Assembly (NCBI GenBank): GCA_030390025.1
Contig: CM059432.1
Location: 27,220,001-27,284,000, forward strand
DNA: 64,000 nt
Source of the DNA: Squalus acanthias
Taxonomy: Eukaryota
Direction of reading: 5' to 3'
Position numbers and translations under genes: made by a program. Of this stretch, positions 1 through 61,663 are shown one piece after another (position 1 is the first letter of the stretch; every line of letters starts with the position of its first letter). Under the pieces are notes generated by a model. That model was given only the letters and a program-made list of their open reading frames with translations. It was not told the origin of the DNA and did no database searches.

Positions 1-300
1 TATGATAGTGTCAGCGTTGTACATTCTCTGAACTTGATAGTATCAGCATTGGACATTGTTTTAATCGATAGTGTCAGCGTTTAACTTTCTGTGAACTCGA
101 TAGTGTCAGTGTTTAACATTCTGTGAACTCGATAGTGTCAGCGTTGTACATTTTCTGGACTCGATAGTGTCAGCTTTGTACATTCTCTGAACTCGATAGT
201 GTCAGCATTGTACATTCACTGAACTCGATAGTGTCAGCGTTGTACATTCTCTGATCGATAGTGTCAGCGTTGTACATTCTCTGAACTCGATAGTGTCAGC
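1..300. repeat. ~32-bp minisatellite (TCTCTGAACTCGATAGTGTCAGCGTTGTACAT), ~9 degenerate copies, runs off the window start
   Basis: GATAGTGTCAGC recurs at ~30-33 bp spacing (GTGTCAGC at 261 and 293). Confidence 0.9.
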
Positions 301-410
301 GTCCATTCCACCAGCCTGCCTATGTCCCCTTGAAGTCTATCACTATCCTCCTCACTGTTCACTATATTTCCAAGTTTTGTATCATCTGAAAATTTTGAAA
401 TTGTGCCCTG
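301..410 (-). mobile_element. CR1 LINE ORF2 (RT) fragment
   Basis: Minus-strand translation ISKFSDDTKLGNIVNSEEDSDRLQGDIGRLVEW matches the CR1 FADDTKL region. Confidence 0.75.
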
Positions 411-27307: not shown

Positions 27308-28336
27308 GGTGGTGCTCCAAGGCCTGGTGGCATTGGCTGGGTCCTGAGGATTGCCATGTTATGCAGCATGCAGCACACAACTACGATGTTGGAAACTCGC
27401 TCAGGCGAGTACTGCAGGGCTCCTCCAGAATGGTCGAGACAGCGGAACCGTTGCTTGAGCACGCCGATTGTGTGCTCCACGATGTTCCTGGTAGCTTGAT
27501 GGCTCTCGTTGTACCGCAGCTCAGCAGGGGTGTTGGGCGTACGGAGCGGTGTCATCAGCCAGGTGCTCAGTGGATACCCCTTGTCCCCGAGAAGCCAACC
27601 AACTGGCTGATGCGGTGCCTCAAAGTTCTGCCACAGTAGTCTGGCGCAGGATGAAAGCATCGTGGCAGCTGCCAGGATAGTGGGCATTGACAGCGAGTAT
27701 CAGCTGTCTGTGGTCACAGACCAACTGAACATTCAAGGAATGGAACCCCTTTCTGTTCCGGAAATCCTCGGCATTCTCATGCGGAGCACGCAAAGCCACA
27801 TGCGTGCAGTCAATGGCGCCCTGCACCATGGGGAAGCCCGCTATCCTCGCAAAGCCCAGAGCGCGTTCTTGCTGCTTGTCTGGGGTCATGGGGAAAGAGA
27901 TGAACTCTCGTCTCCTTTTAAAGAGGGCATTTGTGACCTTCCTGATGCAGCAATGCACCGCGAACTGGGAGATATTGGCGATGTCCCCAACAGCAGATTG
28001 AAATGAGCCAGTAGCATAAAAGTTCAGAGCCACTGTGACCTTCACTGCCACCGACCGAGACGTCCTGGACCTCAGTTGAGGCTGCAGATCTGGCTGCAGC
28101 AGGTGGCAGAGCTCAGTGACCACCTCCTTGCTGAAGCGCAGCCTTCGCAGACACTGCTCATCAGACATATGAATGTAGGAGAGCTGTTCACGATATACCC
28201 TGAGAGGGTAAGCTCTCCTGTACAGACGCCTGTTGGCCCTCCTCCGTCTGGCCATCATTGCCACTCTCTCTCTGCGTCTCTGTCTCCTCCGATTCAGCTG
28301 GCGCAGGACGACGCCCCCCATCAGTGCAGCCCCCAT
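27178..28336 (-). pseudogene. Harbinger (HARBI1-like) DDE transposase, one frameshift near 27630
   Basis: [40 protein letters not shown] and [15 protein letters not shown] across ORFs 27620-28348 and 27178-27687. Confidence 0.92.
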
Positions 28337-29007
28337 ATCTCTTAGCAAGCAAAGTTATGAAGGCCAGAAACCAAAGTACCAGCGAAGTTAGGATGAGTAG
28401 CCAAAACTACCTCACACAGCGTTGACTCAATGCAGAAGTCTCTCTTTCTCTCTCTCCGAATCTCTCTCTCTCTCTCTCTCAGAACGAGTGGTGCAAAAAT
28501 GTCAACCACAGAGAAAGACAGGAAGAGGCCCCCTTTAAATAGCGCCCCCCCCCCCCAGCCCCACAGCGATTGTTCGCGTTCCACTCTTCCGGTCGTTGGA
28601 TGCGCCAGGCGGTAAGGATGGGGGCGCCACTGAAATTCTGCTCCGGGGCGCCACAAGGGCGTTGCACTCTCGTATGACGTCACAATCTGCGCGCGCAGGA
28701 GATCGCGGCGATAAAGTTTAGCGCCGCCGCAAAATGTCTAGTTAAGTTCGCGAGCGGCGCAAACATCGCTGTGCCGGGCGCTAGCTGCTTTGCGCCCCAT
28801 TAGCGCCCTCTTAAGGTGCTAACGGGAGGCACAACCAACTGAATTTTTCCCCCATGGAGTTCTTGAAATTGTCAGAAATTCAAAAATACCAATTATTGAT
28901 GCGATTGTCTCATGACCAGAACTAGAGACTTTCACACAATTTACAACAACCAAAATTTCACTGTGGTCACAATAAAAGTCTGCTTTTCACACTTTAATAG
29001 GTTAGTT

Positions 29008-38734: not shown

Positions 38735-41040
38735 AGCATTGTATTAGAAGGCTCTGCTTCACCAAGGAGGTGGTCACACAACTCTGCCACCCCCTGCAAC
38801 CAGACCTCTAGCCTCAGATCAGGGTGACCACGGCTCTCTCAGTGGCAGTCAAGGTCACCGTTGCCCTCAATTTCTTCGCCAGCAGATCTTTCCAGTCTAC
38901 CACAGGAGACATAGCTAACATCTCACAGTTCGCCGTTCATCGATGCATCCAAGAGGTCACAGAGGCGCTCTACAGTTGGAGAAGGGACTATATTTCCTTC
39001 CCCATCACCAGAGAGAAGCAGGACAAGCGTACATGTGGCTTTGCTAGGATAGCGAGAATCCCCATGGTGCAGGGCACTATTGACTACACCAATGTTGCTT
39101 TGCGGGCACCTCATAACGATCCTGAGATTTTCCGTAAAGGCTACCGCTCACTTAATGTACAGTTGGTGTGCGACCACAGACAGAGAATCCTCAATGTGAA
39201 TGCCTGCTATCCTGGCAGCAGCCACGATGCCTTCATCCCGCGCCAGCCAGTGGCTGTAGCAAGGCTGGTGGAAGGCTGCTGAGTGTCCATGCGGGAGACT
39301 TCAGAGAGCCTTGCAGGATGCCCTCAATAGCTCTGGGTTTGGAAGGCCCAGCAGTAGACTACACCACCTCAGCATGGGCAGCAGAAGTCTGGGCTGGCTG
39401 GCTGGCTGGAAGACAGGCAGCAACAAGGGTAATGGCTGAGTGGCTGAGAGAGGACAGCAGTTCCTTCTCCACTGACCCACTGGCACTCCCCTGGGGAAGC
39501 ACCTCAGCATCCCTAGCAATCTGTTGGAGCACAGATTGCTGGCCTGATGCGACACCGTGAAAGCCCCGGTCATCTGTGGTCGACCCAGCCATGATGGCTG
39601 CAGTTTGCGTGGCATCAAGCTGAGACTTCAGTCTGAGATTGGATGCCACCAAGCATAGACTGCATTACAGCACTAAGACGTTTCGTCGCTTCCATCTGTG
39701 CTGCAATGGAAGCTGCCAGATCGCCCATCACACACAGCATCAGGTCTGGGTCACCACGGTCTCTCTGGGAGTCTACCATCCTTTGCAGACTGGAAATGAT
39801 GGTCTTCATGGTGTGCGCAGAGCCTGGTGCAATGTTGGAGGCGGACTCCTCCACGCTCCTTACCATTGCCGAGAGGCTCTCGGGCACCCTTGCCATTGCA
39901 CCTATCATCTCCGTGTGCATGCCCATCACCCTTCTTCTAAAGGTCTCCCCATCGAGGTCCTCATCTGAGTCCTGTGCTGCAGAACTCGCGTGCGAACTCG
40001 CCCTTCAGGGAGCTGGCCCCCGAGCTACCCTTTCCCCCTGGCCTTGCTGCAGCCCGCTCGTCCCCGGTGCTCACCCTGTGCAGATCCCACTACTATACTA
40101 GCCTCTAAAGAACGCGTAGTGCCAGTATCTGAGCTGGTGCCTGCGGGTGAGACGTGCAGTGACGCAGTGTGTTCTTCTTCCTCCTCTTCTCCCACCTCGC
40201 TCTCTATGGTGCCCTCAGGGACAGGCTGCTCAGCTGCTTGACAGCATAAAGGCACAAGAGTCAGGTTAAGGTGAGGGGAGGGGAGCATACAGCACTCTAT
40301 TTTCCAGCGCAGACAGTGGTTGAATGTCGACTTGCCCCCCGCCTGTGCATTCCTGCTCCCTCCTGTTGTGAGCCGCCTTGGCCTGCAAGAGAAAGAAAAG
40401 TGTGAGTGAGTGTGGAGCAATATGTTTGAGTGATGTGCCTGCCATAGTTGAATAGCTGTCATTGTGTGCAAGGTGTGAGTGTTGGTAGGTAGAGATTGTT
40501 GGTGGGTGAGTGCTGGGGATGTGGTGCTTTGGGCAGTGTGTGAATACTGTGGCATGTAGCATTTGTTGAAGCATTGACTCACCTTGACCACCCGAGTGAG
40601 GTCGTTAAATTTCTTCCTGCATTGTGTGTGGGTCCTGGGGACCAGAGTGCTGCCCAAGGCGTGCTGCGCTACCTCCCTCCACATGGTGCGAAAGACTTGC
40701 GGCGAGGGCCTCCTGCCACTTGTCGGGTAGAGCAACGCTCTCCGTCTCTCCAAAGTGAACATCAACATCTCCAATGCTTGATCGAAGAATTTGCGGGCTC
40801 TCTCCCTGGGGCGTGGATCTTTCATGAATACAGCTGTTTCAGTTCTCTGGCTCCTTCTCCTTGACCTGCTGCTGCTTGCTGAGGCAGCTGCACAGCCAAC
40901 AATGCTGAGAATGAGGTTCTGCAGCATCAATGAATCTCCCCTTAAGAACTGGAAAAAGCCTGTGGCAATCATGACTTGCGATTAGGCTGCACCTGATATT
41001 GGTCCACCCTTTGAGTGTACTCTTTTGATTGGTGCACACT
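38735..41040. mobile_element. Decayed Harbinger: transposase fragment (+, ~38735-39245) abutting a convergent Myb/SANT gene (-, ~39245-40830)
   Basis: ORF 38824-39282 (GTIDYTN, YPGSSHDAF); ORF 40025-40972 (RTHTQCRKKFNDLTRVVK). Confidence 0.8.
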
Positions 41041-49280: not shown

Positions 49281-50131
49281 AATTGTACTCTACATCCCTG
49301 CAGTTTATGTACCACACAAACAATCCCCAGTGATGTAACTGCACCGGTGCCTATTATCATTCAGTTTCTCTGCACAACAGCCTCTTAGCTTAGGATATCC
49401 AGCTGCCAGGCTTCATTCAACAGTACCGACTTAACAGTATCAACACAACAGTTCAAGTACTTTTAAGAAAGAGGGCTTTTCGAACTCTACAATTACATAA
49501 AATTAATTTTATTCTAACTTGTTTTAAAAACAAATAATTAGCAACTCATTAAAGACAATTTATTCAAAAAACATGTCAGTTTAACTTACACAGTGAACTT
49601 CCAACAGCATATAATGAGAAAGCCTCCCATTTTAAAAGGTGCAATCAAAACTAGTTTCTGTTAGCAGATGAAATTGGTCACCACAGAGATGCTATCAAAA
49701 CATGTTAAAAAAGAATGCTCGTGCACTGGACCTGTCATTCCAGATTAGAGCCATCTGAGACACATGCAGCAATTGTGCAATACTGCACTAGTTTCCCTCA
49801 CTCTTGTATCTGTTAGAGTAAAGAGGTAACATACCCAAGTTAAAAATTAGGGAGTTGGAACTAAAAAGTGAAGTCAATAGTTCTTTTTCACCCTAAGAGC
49901 AATAAAGGAGGTCTCTTAAAGGAGGCAAATGGGTTGAGGAAGAGTTTCTGGAGAGAAACAGTTGAAGGATGTAATTAGAAGTTGTGTAGATTTATTAAAA
50001 AGGAGACACGTTTGTTGAATGGAAAAGGAAAAGTTTTGTGGCTGACCCGAGTTTCACATCCTGTACAGGTAGGACATCTGGAAGTACTGAGGCAAAACAT
50101 GGGTAAATTTACACGGGTAAATCGTCGACAG

Positions 50132-51881
50132 TGTAAGGGATTCCCTGACCCTGCGTGTCTCGTAGCCTGTGAGATTCACGCGGCTCTGTGCAGCCTGTAT
50201 GTCAGTGCGGGTCTAGGCCTGGTTGCCTGTTCTGGTCTCCAGCCAGTCTGGGAACACTAGACACACCTGTGAGTGGTTCGAATCACTCTCCCTTACGGTT
50301 CTAGACACTGGACTTAGATGCGAGAGCAGTAATGGAGATAAAACTCATGTAGACTTGGTTTGAATGGTACGAAATGGAAAATCTTTATTGCATGATACTT
50401 AAAATTATGAAATACATGTCATAAGCACAGATTAATGACAGTACAATCTTACAAACAGTTATATAGTCGATCTTAGGGAAACGAGGAACGAACGGCACAA
50501 CGTAAATAGGGGCACACATTACAAATATCCTTAATCTTTAAACCCTCCCCTATCAATATCTATCCTAAACTAGCTTCGTAGGATCTCGAGACTCATGCTC
50601 ACCACTCGTGATAACTCGGAGAAATTCCGAATAGCTGATCGGATGTCTTTCACCGCAGCACCCACGTGTCGGTCAGGAGATCTCCTGGTCCCACTTGTTT
50701 ACTTGCTTCTGCTGCTTCGGCTAGTAGGCTGGACCGTCTGCTGTGATGAAGACCTGTGTTGGCTGGTTTAACAGGTACTCTTGGAGCACCGTTGTCAATA
50801 TCATTGATACGATGTGTTTTCACGTTCCAACCTCCTTAGACACAGTCCCGTTATCGTCGATGCAATATGTTTTGTTAGAAGTTTTAAAGAAGAAAACTTC
50901 CTGGCGAGGAAAACTTGGCTGATCGACCTACAGGCGCGGTCGGGATTTACTGACCGTGGCGATGGATATGGTCTTCTTCTCTTCTCCTCTCATCTCATCT
51001 CATCTCATCTCATCTCGGGCCTTTGGTTCCGCTGCCAGTTACCAACATAGGTCTTCGTTACGCGACACGAGGTAGATCCGTACGGATCAGAAAGTTCAAC
51101 AGTCTTTTCAGAAGAGGCAACAGGCACGCAGAAGCCCAACTACGAGTACACAGGAGCAGCCACGAGGTTACGAATCGACCGGATAAAACACAGGAGCAAG
51201 CGAGCGAACGCAGGAGCAAGAACAAGAGCACGAGGCAAGAGGCAAGAGAGCGAATGGACGGTTTGGAGCCTGCAATTATAGTGCAAAAATCTTCCGTTTC
51301 CCGCCCAACTATAATGTCCATTCTTTTGTTTAGGGTTTGGCGCCCAAATGTCTTGTATGGGTGATCTCCGTTCTTAATGGGTTTCGGGGCTACTCATGAA
51401 TGTTTGAGTACCTGTTAATATTTCTCCCATTGTTAAATCGGTCGGTGTTCTCCCTGGAGGGGTTTGGGGCTTCCAAGTGTCATGTATAACTACCTGCTAA
51501 CGGCTCTCTCATCGTAGAGTCGTTGGGAGTTTACATATTAATGTCCTTTGGATGGGCCCTTGATTACTCGGTACAATGGCTTTCCTTTGTACCTGGGAGA
51601 CCGATTCCAGTATCTATGTTTATACTGCAAACCCATAATGTCTCGTGTATTATCTTCACTGTGCTGAATCGTTATCGATCTTGCACAAATGTTTAATGGA
51701 ACGCCATCTTGTCTGCCTGTTGAAAAGTCCAGAATGTTCTGTCACGAGGTGCGGCGGCCATTTTACAGGCTGCTTGTGTCCAATTTAAACCTGCCAGCAT
51801 TCTGCTGAAATAAAAGCTGTTTGAACGAAACTTTGTGTTTTCTCCTTATTAATCAAATCGCGATATATTGCGAATTCTACA
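50132..51881 (-). repeat. 3' LTR (1750 bp)
   Basis: Direct repeat of 59910-61659; ends TGTA...TACA; minus-strand AATAAA at 50384-50389. Confidence 0.97.
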
Positions 51882-51893
51882 GTCCCTCCTGTT
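51882..51893 (-). promoter_or_regulatory. Polypurine tract (AACAGGAGGGAC)
   Basis: Purine-rich stretch immediately 5' of the 3' LTR on the coding strand. Confidence 0.7.
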
Positions 51894-52304
51894 GATGCGA
51901 ATAACTCCGCTTATCGTATCAAAAATCACAGTGGTGAGCAATCTTATCTCGATTTCACTCCGAATCCAGTAAATTAATCCCATAAATTTTAACTTAACGA
52001 GGGTCTCTGTGTCGTCCTTATTTCCCAAGAAAATCACATTTTATATCACCGTAGGCATCATTTGCCCTTAAACTTACACCACTTGTTTTCCTTCCCGGCG
52101 TAACCAGGCCGATACCTCACGCATCACCTGTATATTTGTCTTTTATTCAGGGAAAGGAAAAAACAAAACCCAAAACCAAACAATCAACACCATCACCAAA
52201 ATAAACAAATCCCAACTCTTAAACATGTCGAGTTTCCAACGTATTTACAATGAGTACAAACTTCCGCGGCGCACGCGGCGAGCGGGAGTGGCGCCATTTT
52301 CCGA

Positions 52305-54176
52305 TTACACGGTGCTCTCATCGTGCACGCGCACGTAACGTTCTCGCCACTCTCCCGTGTTTTCATGCTTGGTGAGGCGCTTGTCTCTTTTACAATGTAT
52401 GACCAATAGGTACACTACAATAAACACTTGACAGACGACTAAAATGTGGGAGGCTATTCTGATCCATGAAGGCACTTCAATATTCGTGAACAGATTCCAC
52501 CACGGTGGAACCACTATGTCCAGAATGTCTGTTCCTATTTCGACAGTTTTCTGCTCTAATGTATAAAAATGTTTCTGTGATACCGCGACGGCTTTCAGAA
52601 GTTTGGTTAAATGCTCAGGGAGAGGGGGAATGAGGTATCCAAAATGCGCGACAAATCGCTGCAAGTCGGTGAAATTCTCTTTTACTGTGAGATGAACAGT
52701 GGATGGTTCAGGGATTGGGATAATTCGCTGTTGTGCTACTTGAACTTCAGCCCTGGGTTTAAAACAGAAACTGCTGTCACTCACCGGACACCGGCTACGG
52801 TTTCCATGCTGGTAGTGTTGCGCTGCAGTGGTAACACAATATGTTCCACCCCCGATGTATGCTACCTGCGGAGGCACATGATCTTGTGCCATTGCCTCCA
52901 TGGTGCAATTCATGGACTTGGCGCCAGCCGTTCTGAACCCGCACTGTGGTGTTAAAAAGGCACTCAAGTGCTGGGGGCACAGTATTATGTGTGCTCCCCT
53001 GCCACGACAACCAGAGAGATCTGTACCTGTCATCGTTTGCTCCCAGCGGATGACGTAAGGTGGAACTGCTGCATAACGAATGTGGGCTCCCCCCTGAATG
53101 ACACCAATGTTCTCTACCCGATACACCGGGGCGGGCTTTGCTGTGTTGCCCAAAACCGGCATGCGTAATACTATTCCCATAATAGTATGGTTTGAACGTC
53201 CGCAGTCCACGGGGACTGGGTAAGCTTCTGAAGCTAGCCTGAGCTGGCACGGACTTAATGCGTTCTGAAAAGGGTGGAGCGCCCGCAGGTGTTTGTTACT
53301 TATCCAGGACGGAACCAAACCTTGTTTTAAATCCTCCAAATTACTGCGGCCCTCGCCCAGTAACCACGCCCCGTAAAGCACGCACACCTCGTTCTGCGCA
53401 GCTTGATCGGATGCATTCCGATCTTCCCTGATCAGGGCATTTACCGTACGCGCATGTTTCTCCAGCTCTGCTATAATTTCCTTTAAATGGAGAGTCATGG
53501 CTTGGTCCTCGTGTAGACCTGACCCTACCACTTTATTCTCATCTGTTAGAATGTCTTTTAACTGTGTTTTTAAACCATTAATCTGGGTCTGCAGCTCCAC
53601 ACTGTCTAGAGCGTTGACCACAGATGTCCCTGTGTTAAAAGCAGTGAACGCATCGTTCACCAAACCCCTTCTTTGCCTCCCTACTTGATCCAAAACTTCC
53701 TGCGGTGCGGTGTACAAACTTGTCTTATCAATTTCTGCAAAATCAAACTCGTAAAATTGTCTGAACATCTTGGTCAACAGGACCTGATACAACTGTTCCG
53801 TCTTTTTGGGGCACCACTCTGGTAACCGTACCTCAGTGAGATTTAAAATCACCGAGGCCACCGCGTAATGTACCCCCTGAAATAGTATCTGGTCTGTGGG
53901 GACCAGTACCAAACCGTTCCCGGGTCCCTTACTAGCTTTAGGGCACCCTTCTTCCTCAGCTAGAACCACCGGAATCGTGGGCGGGGCTTTGCGTGGGCGC
54001 GTAATGAGTTCAGTGGCATTTACTGGGATCGGGGAGAATGGGGCTCCGCACCCCCTGGTGCTCGCATCCCACCTCATCCCCTGTCCGTTATCCTGCCATT
54101 GATTAATAAAAAAATATGGAGATGCCTTTGGGGCAAACGTACTTTGACCCCCACATACATACATAAATCCCCTCAT
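52305..54176 (-). CDS. env: Envelope / class I fusion glycoprotein, C-terminal part (furin site, fusion peptide, heptads, Cys-rich domain, TM)
   Basis: RQRR|GLVNDAFTAFNTGTSVVNAL; heptad LQTQINGLKTQLKDIL; Cys-rich central block; Trp-rich juxtamembrane region; TM ILVVCQVFIVVYLLVI; no signal peptide in this frame. Confidence 0.88.
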   Translation of the reverse strand: MRGFMYVCGGQSTFAPKASPYFFINQWQDNGQGMRWDASTRGCGAPFSPIPVNATELITRPRKAPPTIPVVLAEEEGCPKASKGPGNGLVLVPTDQILFQGVHYAVASVILNLTEVRLPEWCPKKTEQLYQVLLTKMFRQFYEFDFAEIDKTSLYTAPQEVLDQVGRQRRGLVNDAFTAFNTGTSVVNALDSVELQTQINGLKTQLKDILTDENKVVGSGLHEDQAMTLHLKEIIAELEKHARTVNALIREDRNASDQAAQNEVCVLYGAWLLGEGRSNLEDLKQGLVPSWISNKHLRALHPFQNALSPCQLRLASEAYPVPVDCGRSNHTIMGIVLRMPVLGNTAKPAPVYRVENIGVIQGGAHIRYAAVPPYVIRWEQTMTGTDLSGCRGRGAHIILCPQHLSAFLTPQCGFRTAGAKSMNCTMEAMAQDHVPPQVAYIGGGTYCVTTAAQHYQHGNRSRCPVSDSSFCFKPRAEVQVAQQRIIPIPEPSTVHLTVKENFTDLQRFVAHFGYLIPPLPEHLTKLLKAVAVSQKHFYTLEQKTVEIGTDILDIVVPPWWNLFTNIEVPSWIRIASHILVVCQVFIVVYLLVIHCKRDKRLTKHENTGEWRERYVRVHDESTV

Positions 54177-54657
54177 CCGGTTCCCACCATTTGTCCCAAC
54201 AGACTTTCACTTGTCCGTCTGTCCCCGTAATTGTCCGATGGGTATTATTACCCAGTCGTTCCCACTCGACCGAAGAGTTTCTCATAGTTTTGCTCAGCTT
54301 TCGCAGCCACCACCATCGGCTCAATGGGACATTCCCACTACAGGTCAAACAAATCCGTTTGCCGACGGTGACGCTGATCCTGGGTGCGATGATCCTTACT
54401 TTGGGGCACATTAAAGAAGTCTCTTTGTAGGCGAACCCCGATGTGCTGGAATACTCCGTTGAGTTCGTTCCCAGCCATCCTGGCCACCTTCCCTTGTGGA
54501 AATAGGTGCTGGTCCCCTCTGCCTTTCGTCTTCCGGTCCCATCCACCGCGATGGGGGCCGTGTCCCCAGAACATCCAAACACCACGACATCCTTGGTGTG
54601 GCCTCGATAGGCCAATCCACATCCGATTGCCACGAGCAATACTAGAATTCGTTCCAT
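54103..54657 (-). CDS. Signal peptide and Ig-like domain protein (probable Env N-terminus; ORF open from 54816)
   Basis: MERILVLLVAIGCGLA; ICLTC...RWWWLRK...DEGIYVC; N-glycosylation sequons NST, NSS and NNT; AGGATGG Kozak context just after a CACAG splice acceptor. Confidence 0.75.
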   Translation of the reverse strand: MERILVLLVAIGCGLAYRGHTKDVVVFGCSGDTAPIAVDGTGRRKAEGTSTYFHKGRWPGWLGTNSTEYSSTSGFAYKETSLMCPKVRIIAPRISVTVGKRICLTCSGNVPLSRWWWLRKLSKTMRNSSVEWERLGNNTHRTITGTDGQVKVCWDKWWEPDEGIYVCMWGSKYVCPKGISIFFY

Positions 54658-54837
54658 CCTTCCTTGGTTCCTGTGATCAGATAGAATGAGGTAGCCAGCC
54701 TCGCAAAAGTCTCTGGCTTTTGTGAAGGGTGAGCGGGTCCCCTGACCTCGCCTCACGTAAACTTCAACGTTTGCTGAATAGACTTCCTCTAAACCTAGCC
54801 TTAAAACTCCCATCATTTTATCGTTTTCTGTTAAAAC

Positions 54838-54940
54838 ACTACAAACTTAGCCTTATTAAAACTTAAAACTTAACCTTGACCCTACAAACTTAAACTTAAC
54901 CTTGAACTATAAACTTAAAACTTAAAACTAAAACTTTACA
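54838..54940. repeat. Degenerate AAACTT/AACCTT low-complexity repeat between pol and env
   Basis: Direct reading. Confidence 0.75.
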
Positions 54941-54967
54941 GTGCCGCCCGTTCTCAGGGCGGCCCCT

Positions 54968-57900
54968 TTAAATTCTGAGAAGGCTGCTGCGAGCTCTTCC
55001 CGACGGTGGGAGGGCACTGACCCTTCCCTCTGATCTGCCGCAGCCTGTTACTGCTGCGATGTGGCCTGTCTGTACCCGGGTTATCTTAACCTGAAGTCTA
55101 CGCCTTGGGGCAGTCTGGGGACATGACCACATCCTCCTGGGCTGGGGTTCTCTACTTGACCTACGGGGAGTTGCTATGGGCGGGGGTTCCGTGACGGACG
55201 GACCGGGTTCCGAGACCTCCAACGGGATGACCTGGGGTTCCATCACAGTCGCCGGCTCCGCCTCCGCTGACTCCGCCTCCCTAACCTCGGGGCTGGCAGT
55301 TCGTGGCTCCGCCCTGCTCGGCCCAGCAGGCGGCCCTTCACTCGTGATCTCTGCCTCCCCTGAGGACTGGACGTTCAAGGCGGGCGGCCACATCTCTGGG
55401 AGCCACATTGGTACTCTCTGTGCTCCTATAGCGGCTGGCCCTGCCTCCTCTAGCTCCTCCCTCCTGTCCTCGGGACCTGCAGCTTGTGTGTCCACCCTGT
55501 GTGGATCTCTACCTATCGGCCCCATTCCCCCCAGACCGTTCCTCAGGAACCACCCGTCATCATCACTATGCTCATCTGCACTATCCTCATCTGACCAGGG
55601 TACCCTGGGTTCTTCGTCATCTAACCCCCAACTCCAGAAAAACGCTGCATGATCGTCCGGGATGTCCCTTCCTCTGATGCAAGCTGCTATGCCTGCCTGT
55701 GTGCCTTGTGGTCCTACCTGGGGCTGTGCTTTCCCATTGGCGGGATTTACCCCTGTAGTTTTCCCCTGCGCACCCGGCTGGTACAGTTTGCATTGGTTTA
55801 TGTGGAACCACTTAGTGCGCCGAGGCACTTTTACGGCGTAAACCATGGGACTCGCCTTGTCTACAATGTTGTAGGGTCCCATATACAGTGGTTCCAGACT
55901 CCCTACTCTGGCGTAGTTTCTGACCATGACCTGGTCTCCTACTTCCCACTCCCGCGTTTTGCGGGGTTCCAGCAACAAGCGATTGCCCTGATGCTGCCTT
56001 CCCATGTTCCCAGCCGCCTGCTCATAAACTTGCTTCAGGCGCTCCAAGAGAGTCTGGGCGAACTTGTCCCTGCTTATCTCTTGAAGCTGACCCTCAGTGA
56101 GCACCGGGGCTAGCACATGGGTGGGGGTTCGCATGAGCCTGCCGGTCATTACCTCGTGCGGGGAGTACCCCGTACTTTTTGACTGACTGGCCCGGACCCC
56201 CATGAGGACTAAAGGCAGAACTTCCGCCCATTTTTGGGGCGAGTTCCTAGTTTCTTTCCTCAATTTCTCCTTCAGGGTCCGGTTCATACGTTCAACAATC
56301 CCGGATGACTGGGGATTGTGTGCTACGTGCCACTTCCCTTCAATGCCCAAAAGCATGAGGGTGTTCTGCATCACCTGGCCGGTGAAATGACTCCCTTGGT
56401 CTGACTCCACGAAACGGGGGAGTCCCCACCGCGAGAACACTTCCCGGACCAAGATTTTTGCTGTACCCAGTGCCGTAGCTGTTCGACACGGGAAGGCTTC
56501 CACCCACTTGGAAAACACATCCACCAGGACGAGGCAGTACTTATAACCTCCCTGGGTGGTGGGCAGGGGTCCTATATAGTCGATCTGTATCGACTGCCAT
56601 GGTCCCTCTACCCTTCTTACGTGTCCCATGGGCACCTTCCTTTTCTGGGGGTCTGGGTTGTTTGCAGCGCACACAAGACAGTTTGCACAGAACTCGCGGA
56701 CTTGTTCCCTGAGCCCTGGCCACCATCCCGCTTGCTCTACCCGTTGCCAGGTAACCTCGGGCCCGGGGTGCCCTGCCCCTGGTCCCTCGTGAGCCAACTG
56801 GAGGAATTCCCTCCTGTGCTGCTGCGGCACAACCCACTGCTCCCCGCGGAACAGCATGCCTTCCTTAACTGAGAGGGTTGCCGTACTGTACGGACCTTCT
56901 ACCTGCCTCCCCTCAGCAATCGTTTTTAGGACTGCTTTTAGGGCGGGATCCTGGGCTTGGACGGTCTTAAGGTCTAGGGGCAATGCTACCCTGGTGTTCC
57001 CGGTATTCCCGTCCCCGCCTCGGACCGCTGCTATGGGTCCGGTCCTATAGGGGTTCCAGAAAGTGCCGTCGCGGGCACCCTCCCTGGCTAGCGCATCCGC
57101 CTGCCGGTTGCCCTCCCCACGGGGCTCTGTGGAGGAGTGAGCTTTCACCTTATGGATGAAAATCTCCCCTTCCTCCCCTACTGCTGCTGCTAAGATCTTT
57201 TCCAGCAAGGGCTTCACCGTTAAAGGTCGCCCGTCCGCGGAGGTGTATCCGCGGCGGGACCAAATGGCCAGGTATTCCGTACACGAATTGCAGGTGAACA
57301 TACTGTCCGAGCAAATCGTGTATGGGGTTGGGAAAATGTCTGGGTGGGTCACCACGTACACCACGGCAGACAGCTCAGCCTGCTGCGCGCTCATGGTGCT
57401 AGGGAGCTTGATCGCCAGGGCAAGGTCTGCCGCAGGGTCATAAACTCCACACCCTGTGAGTCGCTCGCCAGCAGACACTGTGCTAGATCCATCAACATAA
57501 ATCTCGCGCCCAGTGGGATGTATCCCGGCCCGTAAACCTATGTTGACGTCCCACACCCCTTCCACCGAACACCGGTGGGCTGTACCGGGGTATACCAAAT
57601 TGGCCGCAAGCCTGGGCTCGCAAAGACCTTTTACTCTAAGATCCAACTGGGAGAGAAGAAGGGTCCAACGCGCAATGCGTGCGCTGCTTACGGTCCCGTC
57701 TTTAATCCTCCCATCCAGAAGCATCTTAGTTGGTGTGTGATGTGTGAGGAGAGTGATGGGAGAGAGCCCTGTGAAGATCGCTGATCTTTTCACAGCCCAA
57801 TGCGTGGCTAAAAGGTGCCTTTCGCAATTGGAAAAACTTCTCTCCACATCCGTTAATACCCTGGATGAATAGACAACCGGCCTCAGCTTGCCGTGACGCT

Positions 57901-59905
57901 CTTGGAGCAGCACGGCGCTTAAGCTGTCTCCGCTGGCAGCTACCTCCAGGAAAAACTCCTTCCCCCCATCTATGGCCCCTAAGGCTGGCGCGGTCTGCAG
58001 ATCCCTTTTTAACTTCTCGAAGGCTGCTTGGCAGCCCTCGTCCCAAAGCCACTCCACCCCCTTATGGAGGAGTCGGAGGAGCGGCGCCGCTGTGGCCGCA
58101 TAATCTTCGATAAAATCCCTGCAGTAACCGGTCAGTCCCAAGAAGGACCTCACACCCCTTACGTTGTTGGGAATCGGTAATTCTTGCACCGACTCCCTCC
58201 TTGCTTTGTCTATGGCTCTTTCCCCAGCGCGTAGGGTCAGTCCCAGGAATTTTACTTCCTGCTGACCGATACGTGCTTTCTTTGGGTTTACTTTAAAACC
58301 CTTTCTCGCTAACAGCTCCAATAACTCGTCCAGTAGTGGTCCGTGCTCCTCCCTTGAGTCCGTAAATAGGAGCAAATCATCCACATACTGTACTATCTGA
58401 TTGGGCTGACTAAACTCCTTTAAACTTCCTGCCATACACTGATGAAAAATACTGGGGCTATTGTGGAAACCCTGTGGCAAACAGTTCCACGTGTACTGTT
58501 GCCCTCTGAACGTAAAGGCAAACTTGTACTGGTCCTCTCGCCGCAGCGGGATGGACCAAAAACCGTTCGAGATATCCAGCACCGTGAACGTGGTCGCGGA
58601 CGCTGGGATGCTCCCTATTAGGTCAGCAACTGCTGCTACTGTGGGCGCGCAGGCGGGAATGTTACTGTTAAGGACTCTGTAGTCCACCGTGGCTCTCCAC
58701 GAATTATCCGGCTTCCTAACCGGCCATAATGGGGAGTTCACGTGTGTGGCTATCGGCCTCAACACGCCCTGCTGCACCAAGGAAGACATTGCTGTCTCCA
58801 TATCGGGTTCTGCTTCTTTGGGGAAGTTATACTGCTTTTGGGGTCGGGTCATGGGGTCCCCATCTACGCTGACCTCAAACCCGACCACTCTCCCACAATC
58901 GTGCTTGTGGGTTGCAAACGCGTGCATATTATCTGACACGTACGTTTGCATGTCCGTTGGGACATCTGCGACCATAAGCCTGAGGTCGTAGCCTCCGGAT
59001 GGCTGTACGGTACACAGGACCCCCGGTTCTTCCCCACCGTTTCTGCTTGGGCCCCTTTTAATACCCGTTACTGGATACAACGATCCCTTTTCTTCTTCCT
59101 TTTCAATGGGCTTTTTCGTTCCTTCCATTGCTTCCTCCCTAACCCAGGTTTCTGAGTAGCTGGGTGGCGCGGAGGGCGCAGTGGCTACTACTTCTTCTGC
59201 TTTACTTGGTGGGGATTTTCTAAATCTCTCATTTACTAGCGGCTGGTGCGCCGACGGATTGATAAGGCACACCATGCCGTTCGCATTATTCACGGCCTTT
59301 TTGAGGCTCTCTATCTCCCTTTGGCAGGCGCTATGGTCGGCTCCCTGAAACTTATCCTCAAGGGCCAACTTATACGCCGACCTAACCCCCATTAAGCTCT
59401 CTTCTTGAGTTCTTATCTGGGCAGCTTGGCGGTTGCATCTTTCCTTTAACCTACTCTCATTCAATTTTGCTTCAGTGACCTGGCACTCGAGATACTCTAT
59501 CCTTGTTTTAAGGTGACTGGAGACTTCCTGGCTTTCCTGGTGTAACTCATTTAAATTCTTAATGAGCACCTCCCCTCCAGAAACCTTCTCCTCCATTTCT
59601 CCCTCTAAATGGCTGATTCGAGCTGTTAGCGCTGTAATGGTCTGGTTTGAAATCTGAACCTGCCTTTTGTAGCACATAAGCCAGACTGCTTTCTCAACTG
59701 TCTTTTTATGTTCCTTACTATCTGTCCACCTTTCAGCTGCCTCTAGTGGGCTCTTATCCGCTAACAATTCACTTATCCACTTCTTAGTTAGATTAACCTT
59801 TCCAAACACATAATCCGCTATCTTTTCCTGCATAACATTTCGTACAGTCATTCCAAAATCTAACACACTACCCTCTCGCTGCCAGTGTCCTGCCGCGGTC
59901 GCCAT
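54968..59905 (-). CDS. pol: Single Gag-Pol ORF: coiled-coil Gag N-terminus, RT, tether, RNase H, integrase, acidic/Pro-rich tail
   Basis: NSPLWPVRKPD, LDISNGFW, LPQGF, YVDD (58376-58387); tether VAAS...CERHLLA; RNase H YVDGS/QAEL/CSDS/HKVKAH/GNRQAD; integrase HHCC, IDY/SDQG/VERMN and GPY. Confidence 0.95.
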   Translation of the reverse strand: MATAAGHWQREGSVLDFGMTVRNVMQEKIADYVFGKVNLTKKWISELLADKSPLEAAERWTDSKEHKKTVEKAVWLMCYKRQVQISNQTITALTARISHLEGEMEEKVSGGEVLIKNLNELHQESQEVSSHLKTRIEYLECQVTEAKLNESRLKERCNRQAAQIRTQEESLMGVRSAYKLALEDKFQGADHSACQREIESLKKAVNNANGMVCLINPSAHQPLVNERFRKSPPSKAEEVVATAPSAPPSYSETWVREEAMEGTKKPIEKEEEKGSLYPVTGIKRGPSRNGGEEPGVLCTVQPSGGYDLRLMVADVPTDMQTYVSDNMHAFATHKHDCGRVVGFEVSVDGDPMTRPQKQYNFPKEAEPDMETAMSSLVQQGVLRPIATHVNSPLWPVRKPDNSWRATVDYRVLNSNIPACAPTVAAVADLIGSIPASATTFTVLDISNGFWSIPLRREDQYKFAFTFRGQQYTWNCLPQGFHNSPSIFHQCMAGSLKEFSQPNQIVQYVDDLLLFTDSREEHGPLLDELLELLARKGFKVNPKKARIGQQEVKFLGLTLRAGERAIDKARRESVQELPIPNNVRGVRSFLGLTGYCRDFIEDYAATAAPLLRLLHKGVEWLWDEGCQAAFEKLKRDLQTAPALGAIDGGKEFFLEVAASGDSLSAVLLQERHGKLRPVVYSSRVLTDVERSFSNCERHLLATHWAVKRSAIFTGLSPITLLTHHTPTKMLLDGRIKDGTVSSARIARWTLLLSQLDLRVKGLCEPRLAANLVYPGTAHRCSVEGVWDVNIGLRAGIHPTGREIYVDGSSTVSAGERLTGCGVYDPAADLALAIKLPSTMSAQQAELSAVVYVVTHPDIFPTPYTICSDSMFTCNSCTEYLAIWSRRGYTSADGRPLTVKPLLEKILAAAVGEEGEIFIHKVKAHSSTEPRGEGNRQADALAREGARDGTFWNPYRTGPIAAVRGGDGNTGNTRVALPLDLKTVQAQDPALKAVLKTIAEGRQVEGPYSTATLSVKEGMLFRGEQWVVPQQHRREFLQLAHEGPGAGHPGPEVTWQRVEQAGWWPGLREQVREFCANCLVCAANNPDPQKRKVPMGHVRRVEGPWQSIQIDYIGPLPTTQGGYKYCLVLVDVFSKWVEAFPCRTATALGTAKILVREVFSRWGLPRFVESDQGSHFTGQVMQNTLMLLGIEGKWHVAHNPQSSGIVERMNRTLKEKLRKETRNSPQKWAEVLPLVLMGVRASQSKSTGYSPHEVMTGRLMRTPTHVLAPVLTEGQLQEISRDKFAQTLLERLKQVYEQAAGNMGRQHQGNRLLLEPRKTREWEVGDQVMVRNYARVGSLEPLYMGPYNIVDKASPMVYAVKVPRRTKWFHINQCKLYQPGAQGKTTGVNPANGKAQPQVGPQGTQAGIAACIRGRDIPDDHAAFFWSWGLDDEEPRVPWSDEDSADEHSDDDGWFLRNGLGGMGPIGRDPHRVDTQAAGPEDRREELEEAGPAAIGAQRVPMWLPEMWPPALNVQSSGEAEITSEGPPAGPSRAEPRTASPEVREAESAEAEPATVMEPQVIPLEVSEPGPSVTEPPPIATPRRSSREPQPRRMWSCPQTAPRRRLQVKITRVQTGHIAAVTGCGRSEGRVSALPPSGRARSSLLRI
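59887..59904 (-). promoter_or_regulatory. Primer-binding site complementary to tRNA-Arg (UCG-type)
   Basis: TGGCGACCGCGGCAGGAC, 5 nt after the 5' LTR; its complement GTCCTGCCGCGGTCG-CCA matches my recollection of the vertebrate tRNA-Arg(TCG) 3' end. Confidence 0.85.
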
Positions 59906-59909
59906 TTTC

Positions 59910-61659
59910 TGTAAGGGATTCCCTGACCCTGCGTGTCTCGTAGCCTGTGAGATTCACGCGGCTCTGTGCAGCCTGTATGTCAGTGCGGGTCTAGGCCTGG
60001 TTGCCTGTTCTGGTCTCCAGCCAGTCTGGGAACACTAGACACACCTGTGAGTGGTTCGAATCACTCTCCCTTACGGTTCTAGACACTGGACTTAGATGCG
60101 AGAGCAGTAATGGAGATAAAACTCATGTAGACTTGGTTTGAATGGTACGAAATGGAAAATCTTTATTGCATGATACTTAAAATTATGAAATACATGTCAT
60201 AAGCACAGATTAATGACAGTACAATCTTACAAACAGTTATATAGTCGATCTTAGGGAAACGAGGAACGAACGGCACAACGTAAATAGGGGCACACATTAC
60301 AAATATCCTTAATCTTTAAACCCTCCCCTATCAATATCTATCCTAAACTAGCTTCGTAGGATCTCGAGACTCATGCTCACCACTCGTGATAACTCGGAGA
60401 AATTCCGAATAGCTGATCGGATGTCTTTCACCGCAGCACCCACGTGTCGGTCAGGAGATCTCCTGGTCCCACTTGTTTACTTGCTTCTGCTGCTTCGGCT
60501 AGTAGGCTGGACCGTCTGCTGTGATGAAGACCTGTGTTGGCTGGTTTAACAGGTACTCTTGGAGCACCGTTGTCAATATCATTGATACGATGTGTTTTCA
60601 CGTTCCAACCTCCTTAGACACAGTCCCGTTATCGTCGATGCAATATGTTTTGTTAGAAGTTTTAAAGAAGAAAACTTCCTGGCGAGGAAAACTTGGCTGA
60701 TCGACCTACAGGCGCGGTCGGGATTTACTGACCGTGGCGATGGATATGGTCTTCTTCTCTTCTCCTCTCATCTCATCTCATCTCATCTCATCTCGGGCCT
60801 TTGGTTCCGCTGCCAGTTACCAACATAGGTCTTCGTTACGCGACACGAGGTAGATCCGTACGGATCAGAAAGTTCAACAGTCTTTTCAGAAGAGGCAACA
60901 GGCACGCAGAAGCCCAACTACGAGTACACAGGAGCAGCCACGAGGTTACGAATCGACCGGATAAAACACAGGAGCAAGCGAGCGAACGCAGGAGCAAGAA
61001 CAAGAGCACGAGGCAAGAGGCAAGAGAGCGAATGGACGGTTTGGAGCCTGCAATTATAGTGCAAAAATCTTCCGTTTCCCGCCCAACTATAATGTCCATT
61101 CTTTTGTTTAGGGTTTGGCGCCCAAATGTCTTGTATGGGTGATCTCCGTTCTTAATGGGTTTCGGGGCTACTCATGAATGTTTGAGTACCTGTTAATATT
61201 TCTCCCATTGTTAAATCGGTCGGTGTTCTCCCTGGAGGGGTTTGGGGCTTCCAAGTGTCATGTATAACTACCTGCTAACGGCTCTCTCATCGTAGAGTCG
61301 TTGGGAGTTTACATATTAATGTCCTTTGGATGGGCCCTTGATTACTCGGTACAATGGCTTTCCTTTGTACCTGGGAGACCGATTCCAGTATCTATGTTTA
61401 TACTGCAAACCCATAATGTCTCGTGTATTATCTTCACTGTGCTGAATCGTTATCGATCTTGCACAAATGTTTAATGGAACGCCATCTTGTCTGCCTGTTG
61501 AAAAGTCTAGAATGTTCTGTCACGAGGTGCGGCGGCCATTTTACAGGCTGCTTGTGTCCAATTTAAACCTGCCAGCATTCTGCTGAAATAAAAGCTGTTT
61601 GAACGAAACTTTGTGTTTTCTCCTTATTAATCAAATCGCGATATATTGCGAATTCTACA
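59910..61659 (-). repeat. 5' LTR (1750 bp)
   Basis: Direct repeat of 50132-51881; the only difference seen is C51730 versus T61508. Confidence 0.97.
61029..61125 (-). promoter_or_regulatory. Putative LTR core promoter
   Basis: TATAAT (61053-61058) 29 nt before a pyrimidine-rich GCTCTCTT start; CGGAAG (ETS-like) and TTTCCCGC / TTTGGCGC (E2F consensus) just upstream. Confidence 0.55.
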
Positions 61660-61663
61660 ACAG

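What the first reader, a model, noticed from the sequence alone, without database searches (positions are those of the whole stretch)
52305..53678. Fusion subunit has F-protein rather than orthoretroviral TM architecture
Seen: after RQRR (53667-53678) a 453-aa subunit with fusion peptide, heptad, a long Cys-rich insert (SGC…ILCP…QC…NC…YC…RC…FC), second heptad and TM; no gamma-type CX6CC or immunosuppressive motif. Established: a large Cys-rich domain between the two heptads typifies paramyxo/pneumovirus F and baculovirus F/errantivirus Env. Inference: an intact fusogen of that class.
Basis: partly seen in the sequence, partly recalled or inferred. Interest (0 to 1): 0.7.

Follow-up and report, generated by a model that had tools for sequence, protein, structure and literature searches.

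The report
F-type envelope of young shark retrovirus
A very young endogenous retrovirus, probably of a shark or ray, has an envelope protein predicted to fold like the fusion (F) protein of measles- and RSV-type viruses rather than like a usual retroviral envelope, and it belongs to a different retrovirus branch from the ones already known to have such envelopes; this particular copy is broken.

Summary
52308-53666 (minus strand) encodes a 453-aa subunit after RQRR, with ten clustered, conserved cysteines and no CX6CC or immunosuppressive motif. Its predicted fold matches paramyxo/pneumovirus F and foamy Env (Foldseek E 8e-12; the first 16 VIA rows are all F or foamy Env). It is the env of an 11.5-kb provirus (50132-61659; LTRs differ at 1 of 1,750 bases). 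The closest named relatives are from sharks and skates, more distant ones from frogs. 'Intact' is wrong for this copy: env is frameshifted near 54,110 and capsid/protease are missing. F-type retroviral Envs are published (lokiretroviruses, foamy viruses), but this is not a lokiretrovirus. Its RT falls among canonical retroviruses (AU p 0.013 against one Loki-like proxy) and by eye resembles snakehead retrovirus. The Env also has a probable N-terminal Ig-like module (weak support). I found this pairing in none of 10 literature searches. This scan already noted the F fold and Ig module on other copies in this genome; the snakehead-like placement is what this report adds. Verdict: new variant of a known kind. 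Fusion activity is inferred, not shown.

The parts
59910..61659 (-). 5' LTR, 1,750 bp, TG...CA
   Evidence: 1 mismatch to the other LTR
50132..51881 (-). 3' LTR, 1,750 bp
50128..50131 (+). target-site duplication ACAG (partner at 61660-61663)
59887..59904 (-). primer-binding site starting TGG, 5 nt inside the 5' LTR end; looks like tRNA-Arg (identity recalled, not tested)
   Evidence: sequence; tRNA assignment from memory
59020..59905 (-). 5' part of gag (long predicted coiled-coil-like stretch), joined in frame to pol; no capsid or protease
   Evidence: contigs of 3 of 4 runs leave the window at 59020
54968..59019 (-). pol: RT (YVDD), tether RNase H, second RNase H, integrase with H2C2, rve and SH3-like end, then a Pro/acidic tail of about 260 aa
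   Evidence: Pfam; PDB; homologues
54600..54657 (-). probable Env start and signal peptide
   Evidence: Met at 54657 and hydropathy peak; relatives align from 54642
54106..54396 (-). probable Ig V-like module at the front of Env
   Evidence: weak: Pfam Ig_3 E 0.14, atlas 0.91-0.93, model pLDDT 44, VIA Z 6.4, Foldseek no hit at E<=0.001
54103..54164 (-). region of the frame break in env (near 54,110)
   Evidence: three natural relatives run through in one frame while the window switches frame
53712..53936 (-). F2-like part: beta strands and helix before the cleavage site
   Evidence: model residues 56-130, pLDDT 82-91, inside the range aligned to F; coordinates
53667..53678 (-). furin-type site RQRR
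   Evidence: an R-x-K/R-R site is present in 5 of 7 long relatives checked, in one of them (P0042) only near the N-terminus
53325..53666 (-). fusion peptide and HRA-type helices
   Evidence: model helices 145-189 and 197-259
52722..53228 (-). cysteine-rich beta region (F domains I/II equivalent)
   Evidence: model strands 292-460, pLDDT mostly 71-96; conserved Cys
52524..52616 (-). HRB-type helix
   Evidence: model helix 496-526
52392..52469 (-). transmembrane helix
52305..52391 (-). short cytoplasmic tail and stop

Best explanation
The finding is the membrane-anchored subunit of the Env of a recently inserted endogenous retrovirus, most likely in a cartilaginous fish. The Env family is an F-type ('class Ib') fusogen. 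Inferred working in unbroken members: the precursor enters the secretory route by its signal peptide, trimerises and is cut by furin at RQRR. The small F2-like piece stays woven into the head. After a trigger, probably receptor contact through the N-terminal Ig-like module and/or low pH, HRA extends and plants the peptide GLVNDAF... in the target membrane. HRB then folds back on HRA and fuses the membranes. Shown here: the sequence features, the predicted fold and the proviral context. Inferred: trimer, cleavage, trigger, fusion. The element's pol belongs to canonical retroviruses on the snakehead-retrovirus (SnRV-like) side, not to lokiretroviruses. This copy is defective (env frameshift, no capsid or protease) and would depend on other copies.
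For: Foldseek PDB: 39 of 39 rows shown are paramyxo/pneumovirus F, best hPIV3 F E 7.8e-12. VIA against 48,161 chains: rows 1-16 are all F or foamy Env (Z 9.9, rmsd 16.3, 385 aligned; foamy Z 8.5, rmsd 8.4, 290 aligned), and the first unrelated row has Z 5.2. BFVD: 56 matches at E<=0.001, among them baculovirus F, lispivirus glycoproteins and paramyxovirus F0. Atlas neighbours carry Gypsy, Baculo_F and Fusion_gly families at 0.91-0.93. Conserved cysteines. LTR, TSD, gag-pol-env order. RT trees put the window inside the retroviral clade, apart from the Loki-like protein P0055 (98/98; 100/99 and AU p 0.013). The window RT has LPQG..IFHQ, QYVDD and PTVA like the SnRV row, whereas 24 of 24 Loki rows have xPFG (read by eye). 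The RNase H resembles the SnRV row. A Gag coiled coil is described for SnRV (passage). Named relatives at 59-76% identity are all shark or skate.
Against: There is no sequence-level F signal: Pfam 0 of 33 aligned members match Fusion_gly, Baculo_F or Gypsy among the 25 of 42 families shown. One other hit, P0034, matches Baculo_F at E 0.001. PDB sequence searches are blank. The model is middling (pLDDT 66.8, pTM 0.50), TM-scores are 0.35/0.46 and rmsd is large. The fusion peptide is weakly hydrophobic and modelled with low confidence. SnRV itself is not in my trees, and Loki is represented by one proxy identified by eye. Atlas recognition for the F part (1731) is below the 2300 mark.
Confidence: 0.8

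Rival explanations
1. It is a lokiretrovirus, the first in a cartilaginous fish; the F-type Env is then simply the published family trait.
For: Dual RNase H and F-like Env define lokiretroviruses (PMC7947760). The best Pol hits are named 'NYNRIN-like' and come from frogs and coelacanth, which are Loki hosts. Env landmarks resemble the Loki Envs by eye.
Against: RT motifs differ from 24 of 24 Loki rows. RT identity is 34% to the Loki-like P0055 against 41-52% to the frog, coelacanth and unnamed group. The AU test rejects grouping with P0055 (p 0.013). The Loki Envs shown (7 of 23 with their N-terminus visible) lack the N-terminal extension and have a strongly hydrophobic fusion peptide.
Confidence: 0.08
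2. It is a fish foamy-like ERV whose Env has the foamy (F-like) fold.
For: Foamy Env matches at Z 8.4-8.5; 4-bp TSD as in foamy-like fish ERVs; foamy RT-RNase H ranks high among PDB hits.
Against: There is no room for the roughly 330-residue RBD that foamy Env carries between the F2 part and the furin site. RT motifs differ from the foamy rows. Env is about 780 aa with a plain signal peptide.
Confidence: 0.05
3. It is a Ty3/gypsy errantivirus-like element with F-type Env rather than a retrovirus.
For: The top atlas clusters are Gypsy/Baculo_F Envs; Ty3 is the top PDB Pol hit; F-type errantivirus Envs are widespread (passages).
Against: Tether plus second RNase H; the RT tree separates it from 19 gypsy-type rows at 100/99.
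Confidence: 0.02
4. The fold match is an artefact of long helices plus a beta sandwich, and the protein is a different kind of Env.
For: TM-scores under 0.5, large rmsd, no sequence-level match.
Against: Two aligners and two libraries give the same family at the top, covering the beta region and the pre-furin strands.
Confidence: 0.05

Closest known systems
Paramyxovirus/pneumovirus fusion protein F (hPIV3 1ztm, NDV 3maw, RSV 3rki)
   Same: Predicted fold and order: F2-like piece, furin site, N-terminal fusion peptide, HRA, Cys-rich beta domains, HRB, TM.
   Different: 7-16% identity; encoded by a provirus; has an extra N-terminal module of about 200 aa where these viruses use a separate attachment protein (recalled).
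Lokiretrovirus Env (Wang and Han, PMC7947760; main text parts 1-3 of 4 and parts of the supplement read)
   Same: F-like Env after a dual-RNase-H pol in a vertebrate provirus; similar landmarks by eye.
   Different: RT is outside the Loki clade; this Env has an N-terminal extension and a less hydrophobic fusion peptide; Loki was found in 0 of 6 chondrichthyan genomes.
Foamy virus Env, class Ib (PMC11468914; passages and section 10 read)
   Same: F-like core (8rm0, 8rm1).
   Different: The foamy RBD is inserted between the subunits; here the extra module is N-terminal, the other position that paper names for class Ib scaffolds.
Snakehead retrovirus and SnRV-like ERVs, including elephant-shark CmiERV lineage I (PMC4422223 part 1 of 2; PMC4977317, PMC12193657, PMC2717909 passages)
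   Same: RT and RNase H motifs (by eye), Gag coiled coil, SnRV-like ERVs already known in a cartilaginous fish.
   Different: None of the passages gives them an F-type Env, and one SnRV-related/class III ERV is reported with a gamma-type Env. SnRV has a 136-residue Env tail and accessory ORFs; here the tail is about 29 aa and the stop lies about 420 nt from the LTR.
Errantivirus and baculovirus F-type Env (bioRxiv 10.1101/2023.10.26.564294; passages)
   Same: Same fold class.
   Different: Invertebrate Ty3/gypsy backbone; this element has a retroviral dual RNase H.

Membership tests
F-type (class Ib) fusogens | Beta-rich domains I/II between HRA and HRB | tested here: met
F-type (class Ib) fusogens | N-terminal subunit contributes to the core | tested here: met
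   model residues 56-130 before the furin site are confident and inside the ranges aligned to F (60-529)
F-type (class Ib) fusogens | Polybasic cleavage site followed by a fusion peptide | tested here: inconclusive
   RQRR present; the peptide is Gly-rich and conserved but weakly hydrophobic
F-type (class Ib) fusogens | Trimer that refolds and fuses membranes | not testable with these tools
   monomer model only
Gamma-type orthoretroviral Env | CX6CC motif in TM | tested here: not met
Gamma-type orthoretroviral Env | Immunosuppressive domain | tested here: not met
   simple pattern search negative; no retroviral TM family in Pfam
Gamma-type orthoretroviral Env | CXXC isomerase motif in SU | tested here: inconclusive
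   one CLTC in the upstream frame, inside the Ig-like module
Lokiretroviruses | F-like Env | tested here: met
Lokiretroviruses | Tether plus second RNase H | tested here: met
   (shared with all retroviruses)
Lokiretroviruses | RT in the clade sister to canonical retroviruses | tested here: not met
   trees and AU p 0.013 with one Loki-like proxy; motifs differ from 24 of 24 published rows
Lokiretroviruses | Integrase close to CGIN1/NYNRIN | tested here: inconclusive
   hits are auto-named NYNRIN-like; no integrase tree built
SnRV-like retroviruses | RT groups with SnRV | tested here: inconclusive
   motif match by eye; SnRV was not available as a stored sequence for the tree
SnRV-like retroviruses | Gag coiled coil | tested here: inconclusive
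   long helical, heptad-like stretch seen in the gag remnant; no predictor run; SnRV trait
SnRV-like retroviruses | tRNA-Arg primer site | not tested
   both the tRNA match and the SnRV trait are recalled
Foamy viruses / FLERVs | Large RBD inserted before the SU/TM furin site | tested here: not met
   F2-like helix ends about 12 residues before RQRR; foamy layout
Ty3/gypsy errantiviruses | Single RNase H and gypsy-clade RT | tested here: not met

The most novel reading that the evidence does not exclude
An undescribed retroviral group on the SnRV side of the tree, spread through sharks, skates and frogs and inserting within roughly the last million years, uses an F-type Env with its own N-terminal Ig-like receptor-binding head. 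With foamy, Loki and (by the BFVD match) epsilon Envs, F-type Envs would then sit on most deep branches of Retroviridae. That would favour F as the ancestral retroviral envelope, with gamma/beta-type Envs as later replacements.
Probability: 0.35. Interest if true: 0.75.

Novelty: new variant of a known kind. Interest (0 to 1): 0.5.

Why it matters
Wang and Han left four scenarios open for the origin of retroviral Env, because F-like Env was then known only in lokiretroviruses; foamy Env has since joined. An F-type Env on a third, canonical-retrovirus backbone gives a further point on the tree with which those scenarios can be weighed. It also suggests why surveys built on gamma/beta-type Env queries miss such elements. 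The N-terminal module shows a third way of adding attachment to the F scaffold. Near-identical LTRs make the family a record of recent retroviral activity in cartilaginous fishes.

Tried and rejected
Sequence-only routes to F failed: Pfam and PDB phmmer/hmmsearch. Lokiretrovirus was my first reading and was rejected after reading the published RT rows and building trees. No orthoretroviral TM and no SnRV Env appeared among the rows shown by the fold searches; this absence is not evidence, and I do not know whether SnRV Env is in BFVD. The heptad statistic was not above shuffles. The Ig module gave no Foldseek hit at E<=0.001, and its VIA Z of 6.4 is within the range of common arrangements. No host donor gene was identified. 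No whole genome is held, so copy number and env-pol pairing in other copies were not counted. No RNA holder is listed, and the 'RNA?' runs are guesses, so nothing is claimed on expression. Read depth was not used as copy number. The viral-contig scan found no relative. A look-up of earlier notes by sequence was blank. Two of the first tree's 37 chosen rows (P0065, P0071) were dropped because their RT match was too short. bioRxiv supplements were closed, so the data sets of 10.1101/2021.11.23.469661 and 10.1101/2023.10.26.564294 could hold related elements that I did not see. The PMC7947760 supplement is cut at 774,898 characters. Repbase and subscription papers (for example Hart 1996 and Calcraft 2024, recalled or seen only as citations) were not searchable.

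Full report
OBSERVATION. The minus strand has an open frame at 52305-54206. It contains RQRR at 53667-53678, followed by a 453-residue subunit that ends at the stop at 52305-52307. All ten ectodomain cysteines lie in residues 95-301, none in the other 190 residues tested. Nine of them are conserved in at least 18 of 20 to 21 of 24 covering rows of a 33-sequence alignment. There is no CX6CC and no ISD-like pattern. The fusion peptide is only mildly hydrophobic (0.73), and a crude heptad score did not exceed the 95th percentile of 200 shuffles.

CONTEXT. The gene is the env of a provirus on the minus strand, 50132-61659. The two LTRs are 1,750 bp long with TG...CA ends, differ at one base and are flanked by ACAG on both sides. 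With the two rates used in PMC4422223 this gives 0.13-1.3 million years, upper bound 0.6-6; gene conversion between LTRs could make it look younger. A 1,661-codon frame carries RT, a tether RNase H, a second RNase H and integrase. It has no D[TS]G protease motif in its first 400 residues. A relative at 85% identity has one just upstream of where homology begins, near 59020, and contigs in 3 of 4 laid runs leave the window at 59020. Env is split into two frames near 54,110: three natural relatives (P0002, P0004, P0186) run through in one frame where the window switches. Contigs in 3 of the 3 runs that cover this place differ from the window there; the fourth run has no cover. So the break is not shared by all copies, and it may be real or an assembly slip. 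This copy is therefore not an intact fusogen gene as it stands.

HOST AND SPREAD. Named relatives at 59-76% identity are from sawshark, skate and catshark. Relatives at 26-38% are from other sharks (Mustelus, Chiloscyllium, Heterodontus, Heptranchias) and those at about 19-21% from frogs (Xenopus, Pelodytes, Mantella); phmmer found 44 representatives at E<=0.001. Twenty of 24 listed runs, from six coded organisms and nine studies, hold at least half of the sampled words. In one run 10,257 contig records were laid, 2,550 of them at 90-95% identity, which fits a multicopy family. I infer a cartilaginous-fish host and did not try to identify it further.

FOLD. Sequence searches are blind to the family. 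An AlphaFold2 model of the 598 residues after the break (33-row alignment; pLDDT 66.8, pTM 0.50) shows strands and a helix before the furin site, long helices after it, a beta region (292-460), a second helix (496-526) and the TM helix. Foldseek against the PDB returned paramyxo/pneumovirus F in 39 of 39 rows shown (best hPIV3 F, E 7.8e-12, TM 0.35/0.46). VIA-align against 48,161 chains put F proteins and foamy Env in rows 1-16 (Z 9.9, rmsd 16.3, 385 aligned, down to Z 5.4), with the first unrelated row at 5.2. BFVD gave 56 matches at E<=0.001, including baculovirus F, lispivirus glycoproteins, paramyxovirus F0 and the Envs of WEHV1 and WDSV. The atlas gave Gypsy, Baculo_F and Fusion_gly clusters at 0.91-0.93, with a recognition value under the tool's mark. 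The scores are modest, as expected for a monomer of a refolding protein, but the family is the same in every search.

N-TERMINAL MODULE. The upstream frame begins with a probable signal peptide (Met at 54657) and ends in a beta-rich stretch with an Ig V-type pattern. Support is weak but consistent: Pfam Ig_3 E 0.14; atlas Ig clusters at 0.91-0.93; a low-confidence model (pLDDT 43.6) whose VIA list is almost all Ig-superfamily domains, best Z 6.4, rmsd 2.8, 93 aligned; no Foldseek hit at E<=0.001. I put it at about 70% that this is an Ig fold. A receptor-binding role is inference from position. [quoted passage not shown]

WHICH RETROVIRUS. Lokiretroviruses were the obvious lead. They have F-like Env and a dual RNase H (PMC7947760) and were found in 0 of 6 chondrichthyan genomes. 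The RT argues against membership. Read by eye against the paper's RT alignment, 24 of 24 Loki rows have xPFG and most have SRWPM or SGWPV, while the window has LPQGFH.SP.IFHQ, QYVDD, PTVA, LDISNGFWSI and KVNPKK, as in the SnRV row. The RNase H also resembles the SnRV row. One stored protein, P0055, carries the Loki motifs and served as proxy. It is 34% identical to the window RT, against 50-52% for five frog, coelacanth and unnamed proteins. In a 35-row tree the window lies in a 15-row retroviral clade (98/98) that includes bird ERV Pols (gamma-like by my reading) and excludes P0055; 19 gypsy-type rows are separate (100/99). An 18-row tree agrees (100/99), and the AU test rejects joining the window to P0055 (p 0.013). 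Limits: SnRV, foamy and ERV-L were not in the trees, and the position inside the retroviral clade is unresolved. The primer site looks like tRNA-Arg, the primer I recall for SnRV; both points are from memory. A Gag coiled coil is described for SnRV (PMC2717909 passage) and the gag remnant looks helical. Against close kinship, SnRV has a 136-residue Env tail and accessory ORFs (PMC12193657 passages).

MECHANISM. Shown: signal, furin site, fold, TM, proviral position. Inferred from F and foamy Env: trimer; furin cleavage; an F2-like piece held in the head, probably by a disulfide between two conserved cysteines; trigger by receptor binding and/or acid; HRA extension, peptide insertion, HRB fold-back and fusion. 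The N-terminal module is the likeliest attachment part. This copy could have been carried by proteins made from other copies.

NOVELTY. F-type Env on a vertebrate retrovirus is known (Loki, foamy), and SnRV-like ERVs are known in a cartilaginous fish (PMC4422223). An F-type Env with an N-terminal Ig-like module on an SnRV-side backbone was not found in ten searches or in the passages read from PMC9040795, PMC12440569, PMC4977317, PMC13709493, PMC4299795, PMC5210030, PMC12583693 and bioRxiv 2021.11.23.469661 (parts 1-2 of 6 and passages), 2023.10.26.564294 and 2024.07.05.601823. The library lacks most subscription papers, Repbase and bioRxiv supplements. This scan has already noted the F fold and the Ig module on other pieces of this genome (8 of 12 notes shown); these are unchecked AI notes and not independent support. 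The word 'snakehead' occurs in none of the genome's notes.

VERDICT. Observation confirmed; interpretation right on the fold and wrong on 'intact'. New variant of a known kind, interest 0.5; 0.75 if the lineage proves to show that F-type Env is the ancestral retroviral envelope (probability about 0.35).

Noticed in passing
window 59020: The 5' part of gag is joined in frame to pol; no protease motif and no capsid hit. A relative at 85% identity has a protease just before this point, and contigs in 3 of 4 runs leave the window here, so fuller copies probably exist.
   Followed up: partly
window 54968-55750 (minus): The pol frame runs on about 260 codons past the integrase as a Pro/acidic/Arg-rich tail with no Pfam match.
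   Followed up: no
window 54106-54396 (minus): Probable Ig V-like module with a D-x-G-x-Y-x-C pattern. Frog and bamboo-shark relatives also have an N-terminal extension, one named 'Ig-like domain-containing' by its source and one with a weak V-set hit.
   Followed up: partly
BFVD rows 20 and 35: Predicted Envs of the epsilonretroviruses WEHV1 (E 3e-9) and WDSV (E 4e-6) match the model, suggesting an F-like core there too.
   Followed up: no
P0003, P0009, P0043, P0034: Pieces of this env appear fused to host gene models (Niban-like, cadherin, zinc finger, F-box); probably annotation chimeras or exonised insertions.
   Followed up: no
P0042 cluster: Sixteen near-identical copies of a distant relative, most of them 677 aa, are annotated in the frog Mantella aurantiaca, pointing to a recent burst there as well.
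   Followed up: no
window 50132-51881 and 59910-61659: The LTRs are unusually long (1,750 bp) and contain several short ORFs of 80-136 codons.
   Followed up: no
window 1-310: Tandem array of a 32-bp unit.
   Followed up: no
window 1500-48000: Dense old LINE fragments (CR1-, L2- and RTE-like by eye) and Harbinger-like transposase/Myb pieces at 27620-28354 and 40025-40981 (labels recalled).
   Followed up: no
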